Assembly: GCA_951406725.2 (NCBI GenBank)
Contig: OX597822.1
Coordinates: forward strand, 111,104,001 to 111,168,000
DNA: 64,000 nt
From: Octopus vulgaris
Taxonomy: Eukaryota
Reading direction: 5' to 3'
A model generated the notes under the pieces. It saw nothing but the letters and a program-made list of their open reading frames with translations, did no database searches and was not told the DNA's origin. The position numbers and the translations under genes were made by a program. Positions 5,043 to 56,965 of this stretch are shown here, piece by piece (the stretch's first letter is position 1; every line of letters begins with the position of its first letter).

Positions 5043-5610
5043 GCAGCGTGGAAGGTGTTTATAAGACATTTTAAAAACACTCAAAAAACGTTACATTCAC
5101 TTCAACATTTACATTTAATTTGCCAAAATATTTTCGTCGCTTTGTGACCGCGAGATATTCACTGATAAAATGCAGAACGGTATTTTGTCAGCGAGCTGGC
5201 AGGATCGTTAGCATGCCGGGCGAAATGCGTAGCCGTATTTCGTCTGCCGTTACGTTCTGAGTTCAAATTCCGCCGAGGTCGACTTTGCCTTTCATCCTTT
5301 CGGGGTCGATAAATTAAGTACCAGTTACGCACTGGAGTCGATGTAATCGACTTAATCCGTGTGTTTGTCCTTGTTTGTCCCCTCTATGTTTATCCCCTTG
5401 TGGGTAGTAAAGAAATAGGTATTTTGTCAGCGAACATGTCGCGGTCACAAAAGGACGAATATATTTTGGGAATTTAAATTTTGAAGTGAATCGAACGGTT
5501 TTTGAGTGTTTTTAAATGACTTATAAACACCTTACACGCTGCAATTGTTTTTGTTTCAGCACACATTATCAGATCAGGTCACTTGCTATTTAAGTACATC
5601 TCCGTAATAT
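5043..5610. mobile_element. Head-to-head inverted short element with a hammerhead-like motif in each arm, interrupted by a SINE
   Basis: 5043-5170 is the imperfect reverse complement of 5422-5542. Motifs at 5120-5168 (-) and 5424-5472 (+). Confidence 0.65.
5191..5417 (+). mobile_element. tRNA-derived SINE family B with a 16-bp target-site duplication
   Basis: GAGTTCAAATTCC B box. The central GCCTTTCATCCTTTCGGGGTCGATAAA..GTACCAG resembles the MetaSINE domain (recalled). TSD GGTATTTTGTCAGCGA at 5179-5194 and 5418-5433. Confidence 0.85.
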
Positions 5611-6176
5611 ATATATTACGCTGGACTTAGACTTACCCCATTGTTGATCATATGTGAGACTCTCGGTATTAATTTCTGTGAGTAAATTTTTCTTTAGCAC
5701 TCTACGATAATTGCTTACTTTTACTCCGTCAACATAGGTACTGATCTTTGATAATCATGTTAGTATTTTCTTATATATAGTTTCTTGAGAACTTTTTTTA
5801 AACATCCTGAACCCTCACTTCAAATTGCTACTATCCGTAAATGAATTGTTGTATTCCCTAGACCATTACTAGCTCACACTTTTATTTACCGACCCGGTAG
5901 CCTCTGAGGGTAAATTATTTACTTTTAACATATTGGGCTTCTAGAATATTTGTCTTAGCCATGTTTTCTTACCTCTTCCTTCTCCCATTTGTTTATATTG
6001 TATGCTCTTGTTTTTCACTCTGATGAAGATCCGTTGCCTTAACTTGAATGCCCTATGAAGATAAAGAACATTATTCTCGCATTTATGTATAGACTGCATC
6101 TTGGGAATATGATCACTAACAGCCGTACGTTATGTTACGTCACCTATTTTGTTATGTCATGCATTGTATTAAAAAA

Positions 6177-7660
6177 TCTAGATATATAAAACTCTAGTTG
6201 TGTGAGTGTCTGTCCCCTTCGATTTAGATTCCTAACTACTCCCACATTTTGCGGTGCAGTTTAACCAAATTCGGGTATCTTATAGTCGTGATTCATATCG
6301 AGCCCGTCTGGCTATTAGCGCGCGTCAACAATGAGTCTACGATTTTAAAAATAAACTATGTCATATGAATGATGTATTTTCAATTGGTTTGTACAATTAA
6401 TCTAAGAATAACGTCGAACAACATTCATGGATGATACAAAGGAAGAGAAATTTAAATTCGAAAATTAATATTGGTTTCAAATTTTGGCACAAGGCCATCA
6501 TTTTCGTAGAAGCTGGGTACTTGTTAGCATCGAATCCAGTGCTCATATGGTATATATTTTTTTGACCCCGAAAGAATGAAAGGCAAAGTTGACCTCGTCG
6601 GAATTTAATCTCAAAACGTAAAACGGTAAAAAAAAAAAGGACGCTAAGCTTGGTCCTCCGGCGTGCTAACAATTCCGCCAATTCGCCGCTTCAAAGAATT
6701 AATGTTGCCATTTATTTATATTCTAATACTCCTGATTTCTAGTCCGGAGAGTTAGCAAAAGAACCAGAAATGTTCTAACAAAGAATAAGAGCCTGTCATA
6801 AAAACAATCCTTTCCTACAAATCTATGGGTTCGTGATTATGAAAGGAGCTACACAATGGTATTAATTGGATACAGTTTTTGCATTTAATAAGTTGGTTCA
6901 TTATTGCTATTGAAAGTCCGCTAGCGAGGATGTTATATTTTGTTCCATCGTTAAAGTGATATTACCAAAGCTGTACCAAATATCGTTATATTTTTATGAG
7001 TGTTTAAAACGGAAGAATTATTTAAAAATAAAGCTCGATTTAAACATGCGTTAGAATTATTACTGTTGTCTGCAGTGTCTTTAGAAAATAGGTAACATAC
7101 TGACACGTGAAAAAAAACTAACACACAAATATTCTCTCTCATTCCCTCTCTCTTTCTGTCTCTCACTCTCCCTCTCTCATTCACACACACAAACACATAC
7201 ACACGTACATTCTCTCACTAGCAATATGTATATATATATATATGTATGTATGTATATATATATATATATATATATATATATATACTTACACACACATATA
7301 TATAGCTTGCAGGAGAGTGTAAGCCATACACATACACGTACACACACATTAAAATGCATAATTTTTCGTGTGTCGATGGCGGCGGAGTTGGCGTCCATGG
7401 TCACACCTGCACCTGTTTGCTTCTCCCCCTTCTTCCCTCCCTCGTGAAGCTGTGGGGAAGGGAGTGTAAAGAAATCAACGTCGTAATGCGTTGTCAAGGA
7501 GACCAGCGTTCTTTTAGAACAACGACTTCGTGGCTTGAAGACACCAAAACAGAAATGGCTAAGAAAGCCCGAATTGGCATCTATAAGGGAAGTAACTCTC
7601 TAAAATGCTTATATAGTTATTTCCCTTACAAACCCGAGCAACGCCGGGCGATACTGCTAG
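6177..7660 (+). mobile_element. Non-autonomous Helitron containing a 1-kb insertion
   Basis: A|TC 5' end, subterminal hairpin CCCGAGCAACGCCGGG and CTAG|T 3' end. Termini match copies at 24179-24473 and 39674-40067. Confidence 0.8.
6351..7348 (-). repeat. Inverted duplicate of 8601-9617
   Basis: Near-identical reverse complement; ORFs 6397..6681(-)/9287..9571(+) and 6951..7202(-)/8787..9017(+) mirror each other. Confidence 0.95.
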
Positions 7661-9277
7661 TAAGCTATAAATGTGGTCCAAGCGATGTGTTGGTTAATCT
7701 GTAGTTTTTTTTTCCATTTTCTAATTATAAGTATGTATATATATATACTTAATAAATAGGGTTCAGCTAATCTTTGCTGAACCCTATTTATTAAATATTA
7801 CTTATGTTTACCATGAAATGGTCCTTTTTTCATGCTGAATTCTGCTTGGTGAAATTATTGATTAATTCTTAATTAATTAATTTTACCCTTTGTTATTATT
7901 ATTATTATTATTATTATTATTATTATTATTATTATATATATATATATATATATATATATATATAATCATTGGGATGCGACTCTATTATATACTGTTTTCT
8001 CTCCCTTTTTTTCTAATTCCCTTTTTCTTCCCTTCACCATTTTATATTTGTCTCTCGCCCCCCTTTCTCCTTATCTCTCTCTCTTGTTGCTCACACGTGA
8101 TCATCGTCCATCTTTCGTTTCCTCGCGTGATCATCTTTCTTTTTCTTTAGGACTGTCATATGGATTGGAGGTATTCTATCTTTCTCTTCTACCTTTTCTC
8201 TTTTCAAAGAAAATATTCCTCCAGAGTTCGCTATTTTACCCTCGTTCTGCTCTAACGAACCTCCATGTTTGTTCTCGCTCCGTTTCCTTTTATGTTCTGT
8301 TTTTGTTTCCTAATTTCACCCTTCATAAATCCAAAATTTTATTTTGTTACTTATAGGAGCAACTGTCTTCGAAGGCTCGTATTGTCGTTGAAGGTTCGAA
8401 ATGATAAGTAGATACAAACCCGACAACTGATGAGGGGTCGTTTGTTGTGTTACTCGTTCTGTTTTCCATGTGACTCTTTCGTTGTTTGCGTATTGAACTC
8501 ATTTGTTTTCGTATTTCGTGTTGATTACTGTTTCTGACATCCTGTACCCATATACCCATATCTGCTTGTGTGTGTATATATATATGCGTTTGTGTGTGTG
8601 TGTGTGTGTACGTGTATGTGTATGGCTTACACTCTCCTGCAAGCTATATATATGTGTGTGTAAGTATATATATATATATATATATATATATATATATATA
8701 TATATATATATATATATATATATATATATATATATATACATATTGCTAGTGAGAGAATGTACGTGTGTATGTGTTTGTGTGTGTGAATGAGAGAGGGAGA
8801 GTGTGAGAGACAGAAAGAGAGAGGGAATGAGAGAGAATATTTGTGTGTTATTTTTTTTCACGTGTCAGTATGTTACCTATTTTCTAAAGACACTGCAGAC
8901 AACAGTAATAATTCTAACGCATGTTTAAATCGAGCTTTATTTTTAAATAATTCTTCCGTTTTAAACACTCATAAAAATATAACGATATTTGGTACAGCTT
9001 TGGTAATATCACTTTAACGATGGAACAAAATATAACATCCTCGCTAGCGGACTTTCAATAGCAATAATGAACCAACTTATTAAATGCAAAAACTGTATCC
9101 AATTAAGACCATTGTGTAGCTCCTTTCATAATCACGAACCCATAGATTTGTAAGAAAGGATTGTTTTTATGACAGGCTCTTATTCTTTGTTAGAACATTT
9201 CTGGTTCTTTTGCTAACTCTCCGGACTAGAAATCAGGAGTATTAAAATATAAATAAATGGCAACATTAATTCTTTGA

Positions 9278-55522: not shown

Positions 55523-55720
55523 GGCGACGAGCCGCCAGAATCATTAACTCACTGGGCAAGAAGATTAGCAGCATTCCGTACGTCTTTACTGTTGAGGTTG
55601 ACTTTGCTTTTCGACCTTACGGGATCAATAAAATAAATACCATTTGAACACTCAGGTCGATGTAATCGAAACCTCCCCTTCCCTAGAATTGCTTGACATC
55701 TGCCAAATTTTTGAAAGAAA
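55523..55720 (+). mobile_element. Old SINE family B-related copy
   Basis: GGCGACGAGCCGCCAGAATCATTA head; GAGGTTGACTTTGCTTTTC core. Confidence 0.6.
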
Positions 55721-56928
55721 TATCAAATAATAGAAATCCCCTTTTGTATATCTCAAGTTAACTTTTCATGTATCGCATCTCCTTCTATTACCATCAATTC
55801 TATTATGATCACTAAACCTGCTCCGTTTTATGCTAACTCTCTCTCTCTTTTTCTCCTTTACAACCTTCCTCGCTCTCTATACGACATAAATCATAGCTAG
55901 ATAATTCAACCGACCTACCAACCCACCAAACCACCAACCAACCAACCAACATTTATGTCGGGTATTATTATATGGAGATTACAAGTTGTTAAAATCCATG
56001 GCCTAACGCACGGGAAATATATTCAAATCGTGTATGGAAATTGAATATATAATATAACCTTTTGGATACATATACATAATAAATATATTCCAATTTAATT
56101 TCTTCTTAATGAGTATTTAATATCCACCAAATAGATTTACGCAATGAACAGAAACGAAGAGAATGAAGAAGAAATCAATACTTCACAGTTTTGAATCTAC
56201 CAGTGCTAAACAGTAGAAGCAATCAAATAGAATGCTCAGATGTATACGTTGTAAAATATGCAAACACATTTTCATGGATTTCCAATAATTAATAAGCCAA
56301 TATAGTTGTAAGGTACCAAGGTTACTCTAATTGCTTTGAAATGTAACTTGCATGTTAGTGCCTCGACTACTGTAAGACAGTGCATAGTCATTGATTTCTA
56401 AGAAAGAATATCAATCTAAAACAAAAGCAAAATCACAACTAAAGGGATCGCTGAAACTGTGTGGGTACATATATATATATATATATATATATATATATAC
56501 ATACATATATTCAGTTGACAATCAGGAGTCCAGTGGTGGTTGCGACTTCACGTCAGGAGTATGTTATATTGCTGACCTAACCCGCGGGCGTGGCATCATT
56601 AGAAAGCTACAACAATGGGAGAAAAGTCATCGTGACCAGCGGTACGCAAACAGTATGGTATAGTTTGGTCGATTCAGCGAGACACTGATACATACATATA
56701 TATATATATATATATATATATATATATATATATATATATATATATATATATGCATATTGTTTATATTTATATGTATCTCTCTCCCCACCTCTCTCTCTAT
56801 CTCTTTCTCTACGTATATATATATATATATATATACTGTTGTGTCTGGGGAGAGTAATTTTCTTTTTGTGCCTTATAATGTAACACACTCACCGGTAAAA
56901 TTTCCACTTATTTCTTATTTTTATTTTC

Positions 56929-56965
56929 CTAACATTTTCGTTGCGTCTTGCAACCTTTTCAATAG
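56929..56965 (-). ncRNA. Degenerate minimal hammerhead, U3:A8 variant, in an element between (TA)n tracts
   Basis: Minus strand reads CTA TTGAAAA G GTTGC AAGAC GCAAC GAA AATG T TAG. Confidence 0.4.

What the first reader, a model, noticed from the sequence alone, without database searches (positions are those of the whole stretch)
5120..56965. Compensatory changes at the hammerhead 3:8 core pair (C:G, U:A, G:C) across families
Seen: the cores read CTGATGA/CTGAAGA (3430, 25952), TTGACAA (14239-14245, minus), TTGAAAA (56956-56962, minus) and GTGAATA/GCGAACA (two arms of 5043-5610, consensus GTGAACA). Established: C3 and G8 form a tertiary Watson-Crick pair in the active fold, and swaps that keep the pairing can retain activity. 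Inference: paired double changes argue for selection on catalysis rather than decay, and standard CUGANGA searches would miss these families. Caveat: TTGACAA could arise from CTGACGA by two transitions in a single copy.
Basis: partly seen in the sequence, partly recalled or inferred. Interest (0 to 1): 0.75.

Follow-up and report, generated by a model that had tools for sequence, protein, structure and literature searches.

The report
Swapped-core hammerheads in retroelement ends
The short repeats in this window are end-pieces of jumping genes whose hammerhead-shaped RNA carries the usual C-G core pair or a U-A or G-C swap; across the genome all four base-pair versions and a U-G wobble occur at high copy number, which likely reflects selection to keep a slow self-cutting fold, although no cutting has been shown.

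Summary
All cited cores are present. Each belongs to a dispersed family of type I hammerhead motifs; most window copies are individually decayed. G3:C8 is fixed in the 5043-5610 family (5,711 exact copies against 171 non-G3), which is the end of an intact Penelope-like element. U3:A8 is fixed in the 56956 family, a sister lineage. The 14239 family is not fixed: 77 of the first 100 listed copies have a U3·G8 wobble, and the window copy belongs to a U3:A8 subfamily. A family-agnostic search adds A3:U8 (1,219 against 136 other), and one family is dimorphic for G3:C8 and A3:U8. Covariation is therefore real and wider than reported, but wobble lineages also spread, and catalysis is untested. U3:A8 is published. 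I found no natural G3:C8 or A3:U8 family in print, but five key papers could not be read. This scan noted G3:C8, A3:U8 and wobble cores before, on other DNA.

The parts
3365..3522 (+). Family E fold-back insertion; C3:G8 hammerhead, core 3430-3436 (mirror 3417-3423), U10.1·U11.1, helix III ACAG/CTGT, A17
   Evidence: C:G in 35 of 35 descriptor hits
5034..5170 (-). Family C inverted arm; decayed hammerhead, core 5156-5162 (G3·U8 in this copy)
5179..5433 (+). SINE-like insertion into the core of arm 2, flanked by a 16-nt direct repeat (5179-5194, 5418-5433), part of which may be the insert's own ends
   Evidence: 7 further blast matches in the window; the label SINE is recalled
5422..5607 (+). 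Family C pseudo-LTR end and tail; G3:C8 hammerhead, core 5430-5436 (U4C and A15.1U in this copy); family form has an extra G after A9, helix III AATATT, U17
14037..14306 (-). Family A fragment of a ~357-nt tandem unit (retrozyme-like); core 14239-14245 U3:A8, helix III ACTAGT, C17; belongs to the minority subfamily
25727..26058 (-). Family D; canonical C3:G8 type I hammerhead with full helix III, core 25952-25958, C17
31953..31959 (-).
   Evidence: similar motif in L297
56822..57028 (-). Family B pseudo-LTR end with 5' inverted tail; core 56956-56962 U3:A8, extra G, helix III AATT (AATG in this copy), U17, helix I about 3 bp

Best explanation
These are end-fragments of several retroelement families whose hammerhead motif has changed its 3:8 core pair in the source elements (C:G, U:A, G:C, and elsewhere in the genome A:U and U·G), likely because selection keeps positions 3 and 8 paired for slow, dimer- or protein-assisted self-cleavage. 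Shown: family-level fixation of G3:C8 and U3:A8, linkage of 3 with 8 within and across families, and location of G3:C8 at the 3' pseudo-LTR of an intact RT plus GIY-YIG frame. Inferred: copies are reverse transcripts of uncleaved RNA primed in the tail and decay neutrally after insertion; the palindromic helix III forms between two copies; swaps by transition pass through G·U wobbles; G3 lineages avoid C17 because a G3-C17 pair would extend helix I over the cut site. Untested: cleavage.
For: Family C: 5,711 exact G3:C8 against 171 non-G3; 91 of the first 100 non-G3 keep C8 and none is C3:G8. 14 of 14 young-subfamily copies are G3:C8, and 4 of 5 fetched ORF-linked stretches carry the identical intact motif (the fifth is an older, damaged copy). 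Family B: 65 of 72 U3:A8; 98 of the first 100 non-U3 copies keep A8. B and C endonuclease pieces are 46% identical and share helix II GTYGC..GCRAC. Family-agnostic motif with helix III ACSSGT: 8,695 non-C3 matches against 162 control, 94 of the first 100 Watson-Crick (hand count); A3:U8 1,219 against A3:other 136; G3:C8 115 against G3:other 82, the latter scattered. Family F: 26 A:U, 8 G:C, 3 mismatched, 0 G·U of 37. Random 1.19 Mb: 21 of 28 sites Watson-Crick against 3.3 sites per shuffle. Papers: C3G/G8C partly rescues a Penelope-element hammerhead (PMC11167929); G3-C8 is more active with G17 than with C17 (PMC3884650, data not shown there).
Against: Family A majority is U3·G8 with U17, and a sister copy with perfect helix I is U3:A8/C17 (L227), so the weaker form may be derived and still spread. 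Other wobble motifs recur (4 of 100; 6 places). Within family C, core plus stems are not significantly more conserved than the rest (1 of 41 against 10 of 107 variable columns, p=0.29). The predicted fold pairs G3 with U17. There is no pile-up of 5' ends at the cut site (1 of 30 family C loci). Hammerhead cleavage was dispensable for insertion in vitro (PMC11167929). Copies are not independent events; the number of independent swaps is small and no tree was built. U:A to G:C needs two transversions through a mismatch.
Confidence: 0.68

Rival explanations
1. The fold, including the 3:8 pair, is kept for a non-catalytic role such as binding by the element's protein, RNA dimerisation or template positioning; cleavage is negligible.
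For: Sampled copies mostly run through the cut site. U17 and a G3·U17 wobble are predicted. Catalytic mutants still insert in vitro and no RNA ends map to the site in PMC11167929. Minimal hammerheads cleave weakly (PMC4209133).
Against: The 3:8 pair is a feature of the catalytic conformation (PMC3884650, introduction). G5, A6, A9, GAAA and U16.1 are retained, and G17 is absent from all 11 hammerhead clusters.
Confidence: 0.17
2. Relaxed selection plus founder effects: a few source elements acquired core changes, and copy number reflects their proteins, not the ribozyme; paired states are partly luck and ascertainment.
For: Wobble majority in family A. Few independent events. The conservation test is not significant. 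My first BLAST samples were biased toward the query state (37 of 44 U:A against 23 of 100).
Against: Paired states dominate many different helix II variants in searches that left position 8 free. No family with a pyrimidine-pyrimidine or purine-purine majority was established, though 3 C3:A8 look-alikes were not followed up. Family F shows both positions changed together.
Confidence: 0.12
3. The non-C3 motifs are decay products or chance look-alikes of ordinary repeats.
For: Window copies fail a strict descriptor. Rfam lists no hammerhead. CG to CA at positions 7-8 is a CpG transition.
Against: Family-level fixation. CpG decay is only 32 of 375 sites in family A. The motif sits at the expected place in an intact Penelope-like element.
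Confidence: 0.03

Closest known systems
Minimal type I hammerheads of Penelope-like element pseudo-LTRs (Cervera and de la Pena 2014, PMC4209133; results, discussion and supplement passages read)
   Same: Extra nucleotide between 9 and 10.1, G10.1-C11.1, palindromic helix III, dispersed solo copies and opposite-strand pairs; a U3-A8 variant with about 1,300 hits in Schistosoma mansoni; U17 occurs in their alignment.
   Different: G3:C8 and A3:U8 families are not in the text or the searchable supplement (file 1 not searchable); here all four pairs and a wobble occur in one genome.
Natural U3-A8 core covariation (Perreault et al. 2011, PMC3088659; section 8 and passages read)
   Same: Same compensatory change; U10.1-U11.1 also reported.
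   Different: Only U3:A8 was reported, as rare; purine-3 pairs are not mentioned in what I read.
Non-LTR retrozymes (Cervera and de la Pena 2020, PMC7229834, passages; bioRxiv 10.64898/2026.07.22.740005, first part read)
   Same: Family A: non-coding tandem unit of about 357 nt with one type I hammerhead and a palindromic helix III; mussel units are 350-390 bp.
   Different: Core is U3·G8 or U3:A8; mostly dispersed partial tandems; circular RNA not tested.
Engineered C3G/G8C rescue in the Anolis Poseidon hammerhead (Frangieh et al. 2024, PMC11167929; parts 1-2 read)
   Same: The same swap partly restores protein-assisted cleavage in a Penelope element.
   Different: Engineered and with an ordinary cut site; here natural, fixed, and paired with U17 or A17.

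Membership tests
Type I hammerhead ribozyme | Core N3-U4-G5-A6-N7-N8-A9 and G12-A13-A14-A15.1 with U16.1 and H17 | tested here: met
   Family profiles; several window copies are individually damaged
Type I hammerhead ribozyme | Helices I and II flank the core | tested here: met
   Folds for C, B and A; helix I is about 3 bp in B and has a C·A mismatch in A; family F helix II is weak and not in the minimum-energy fold
Type I hammerhead ribozyme | Positions 3 and 8 can pair | tested here: met
   Watson-Crick in B, C, D, E, F; wobble in the majority of A
Type I hammerhead ribozyme | Self-cleavage 3' of N17 | not testable with these tools
   No raw RNA reads available
Type I hammerhead ribozyme | Match to an Rfam hammerhead model | tested here: inconclusive
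   None among the 150 shown of 196 matches; window copies are decayed and intact copies were not scanned
PLE minimal hammerhead | Extra nucleotide between 9 and 10.1 | tested here: met
   G in B (70 of 72) and C (73 of 86); absent in A, D, E, F
PLE minimal hammerhead | G10.1-C11.1 and palindromic helix III | tested here: met
   AATATT (C), AATT (B), ACTAGT (A), ACCGGT (F); the C and B duplexes are predicted weak (-0.2 and +2.2 kcal/mol)
PLE minimal hammerhead | Located in the pseudo-LTR of an RT plus GIY-YIG element | tested here: met
   C: 1025-aa frame in L365, GIY-YIG E=1.8e-05; RT by motifs and weak similarity to an RVT_1-positive frame, no Pfam RT hit itself. B: one locus with an inverted GIY-YIG piece. 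Not shown for A, D, E, F
Non-LTR retrozyme (family A) | Short non-coding tandem unit with one type I hammerhead | tested here: met
   Period 355-357 nt in 5 held loci; cores 355-358 nt apart
Non-LTR retrozyme (family A) | Expressed, self-cleaved circular RNA | not testable with these tools
   Only contigs were available

The most novel reading that the evidence does not exclude
One animal genome holds a complete natural exchange series at the hammerhead 3:8 pair (C:G, U:A, G:C, A:U and U·G), all catalytically competent, with a third-site rule: G3 lineages never use C17. G3:C8 goes with U17 in family C and with A17 in 96 of the first 100 of another clade, whose A3:U8 relatives have C17 in 78 of 100; a G3:C8 plus C17 pattern stays below its control (249 against 423). 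Retroelements would thus tune cleavage rate through positions 3, 8 and 17.
Probability: 0.35. Interest if true: 0.7.

Novelty: new variant of a known kind. Interest (0 to 1): 0.5.

Why it matters
It supplies natural phylogenetic support for the tertiary 3:8 pair beyond the published U3:A8, and shows that CUGANGA descriptors miss many thousands of motifs per genome, including the end of an intact element. It also bears on an open question, whether Penelope-element hammerheads are under selection to cut or merely ride along: matched natural variants (paired, wobble, different N17) give ready test constructs. The chemistry itself is not surprising, since engineered swaps were known to rescue.

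Tried and rejected
Rfam scan of the window: only microsatellite look-alikes. Direct-repeat output was swamped by microsatellites. Strict descriptor found 1 window site. Looking for copies that begin at the cut site: no excess. Core-against-flank conservation in family C: not significant, p=0.29 and 0.31; only loop 2 differs, and that is one or two events. My first reading that U3:A8 is fixed in family A was overturned by the unbiased pattern search; the family A row of the cluster census carries the same bias. A two-copy cluster with G3 and G17 was rejected as a SINE coincidence. The idea that U17 is special to G3:C8 was rejected: C3:G8 families also have U17. U3 with A17 occurs, so avoidance of N3-N17 pairing is not general. 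No hammerhead was found downstream of two related frames (L274, L165). Sequencing runs: no RNA holder listed. No tree of elements was built. Papers not held: Lunse 2017, Przybilski and Hammann 2007, Nelson and Uhlenbeck 2008, Martick and Scott 2006, Hammann 2012; any may report purine-3 natural variants. Absence from print rests on searches and supplement searches.
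Full report
Observation. The window is AT-rich, microsatellite-rich animal DNA (35% GC) from a 2.8-Gb genome. That it is an octopus is a guess from recalled repeats and earlier notes, not tested. All six cited heptamers are at the stated places, each in a hammerhead-shaped context. A strict descriptor accepts only 25958, because most other copies are damaged and 3430 has U10.1·U11.1. Rfam shows no hammerhead among 150 listed of 196 matches. The question therefore had to be settled at family level.

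Families. Each motif belongs to a dispersed repeat of about 150-350 nt with 172-1282 first-look candidates. D (25952) and E (3430) are C3:G8. C (5043-5610) has G3 in 86 of 86 held copies and G3:C8 in 74. Genome-wide there are 5,711 exact G3:C8 matches against 171 with another letter at 3; of the first 100 of those, 91 keep C8 and none is C3:G8. B (56956) is U3:A8 in 65 of 72; 98 of the first 100 of 133 non-U3 copies keep A8. Both have the extra G after A9, G10.1-C11.1, a palindromic helix III and U17. In contigs of four public runs labelled as four organisms, no other letter reached 5% at positions 3 or 8 of family C, while loop 2 varied.

BLAST with the window copy returned mostly U3:A8 (37 of 44). 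The unbiased pattern gave 276 matches, of which the first 100 are 77 U3·G8 and 23 U3:A8 (hand count). Only 2 copies have a letter other than U at 3, one of them C3:G8. A8 is a true subfamily: a tail-only query retrieved 22 A8 and 1 G8 of 24, the few G8 copies held differ at N17 and several tail sites, and CpG decay elsewhere is 32 of 375. Contig depth in three runs is 72-87% G8 and 79-98% U17; a fourth, shallow run shows only A8 (depth is not copy number). A sister copy at 80% identity is U3:A8/C17 with a perfect helix I (L227). The wobble form may therefore be the derived one. Family A repeats with a period of 355-357 nt and resembles non-LTR retrozymes (PMC7229834, passages).

Parent elements. 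Upstream of family C lies a GIY-YIG frame. L365 holds an uninterrupted 1025-aa frame with RT motifs and GIY-YIG and the G3:C8 motif about 1 kb past its stop on the same strand; three more ORF-linked stretches carry the identical motif, and a fifth is damaged. A family B locus holds an inverted endonuclease piece 46% identical to C's. B and C are thus related Penelope-like lineages differing at both 3 and 8; the link for B rests on one locus. The linker has a CxxxC-xxC motif of the Neptune/Nematis kind (PMC8557442, passages); the clade was not resolved.

Wider census. In 119 evenly spaced 10-kb stretches the descriptor with free 3 and 8 found 28 sites, 21 Watson-Crick (12 C:G, 6 G:C, 3 U:A), against 3.3 per shuffle. 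One G:C singleton (L290, family F) proved repetitive and dimorphic: of 37 exact-context copies, 26 are A3:U8, 8 G3:C8, 3 mismatched, none G·U (alignment). A family-agnostic pattern with helix III ACSSGT and a letter other than C at 3 gave 8,695 matches against 162 control; the first 100 are 78 U:A, 15 A:U, 1 G:C, 4 U·G and 2 mismatched. Whole counts: A3:U8 1,219 against A3:other 136; G3:C8 115 against G3:other 82 (controls 9, 38, 7, 33). Copies are not independent events, so these show fixation in source elements, not the number of swaps.

Third site. G3:C8 in that clade has A17 in 96 of the first 100; A3:U8 has C17 in 78, A17 in 13 and U17 in 9 of the first 100. Family C has U17 in 49 of 49. 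A G3:C8 plus C17 pattern stays below control. A G3-C17 pair would extend helix I over the cut site, mirroring the C3-G17 trap, and PMC3884650 (passages) states that G3-C8 is more active with G17 than with C17. This rests on perhaps two lineages and is a hypothesis.

Mechanism. Inferred from PMC11167929 and PMC4209133: the element's protein primes reverse transcription in the tail downstream of the hammerhead, so short copies of uncleaved RNA, often with 5' inversions, litter the genome and decay. Selection acts only on source elements. Keeping 3 and 8 paired most simply reflects the catalytic fold, working slowly as a dimer or with protein help. Against this: wobble lineages spread; core and stems are not significantly more conserved than the tail in family C; G3·U17 is predicted to extend helix I; 5' ends do not pile up at the cut site; and cleavage was dispensable in vitro.

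Novelty. U3:A8 is published (PMC3088659, PMC4209133), and the engineered G3:C8 swap gives partial rescue (PMC11167929, PMC8495972 passage). Seven searches and the supplements I could search showed no natural G3:C8 or A3:U8 family, but five key papers were not held. Earlier unreviewed notes of this scan report G3:C8, A3:U8 and wobble cores on other DNA. Verdict: a real, new variant of a known kind; interest 0.5.

Noticed in passing
L241:4168-4911 (G000 C8): A young Penelope-like family (tandem period 4,271 nt, a separate 430-aa upstream frame, more than 100 near-identical RT copies) carries a hammerhead with U4C and U10.1·U11.1.
   Followed up: partly
window 5179-5433: A SINE-like element inserted between core positions 6 and 7 of the family C hammerhead, with a 16-nt direct repeat.
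   Followed up: yes
family C and B 5' ends (e.g. L162, L166-L170, L082): Many copies begin at one point 15-30 nt upstream of the core, often with an extra G; longer copies show a branch-point-like and CAG sequence there. This could be a capped transcription start or a 3' splice site.
   Followed up: no
window 3365-3522 and L121-L150: Nearly all family E copies are fold-back palindromes that turn at the start of helix I.
   Followed up: no
window 2367-3335 and 6351-9617: Long near-perfect inverted repeats (472 nt at 100%, 767 nt at 99%); the first resembles sequence upstream of family D copies.
   Followed up: no
G000 C1:8134352-8135463 and C1:22454991-22455382: Another U3:A8 hammerhead family in tandem arrays with a period of 360-363 nt.
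   Followed up: no
matches: Older relatives of B and C: a G3:C8 form with helix III AATT, a recurring U3·G8 form (6 places) and 3 C3:A8 look-alikes.
   Followed up: no
   Followed up: partly
window 11501-12046(-) and 18407-19078: Frames that look like decayed mariner-type transposase pieces (recalled resemblance).
   Followed up: no
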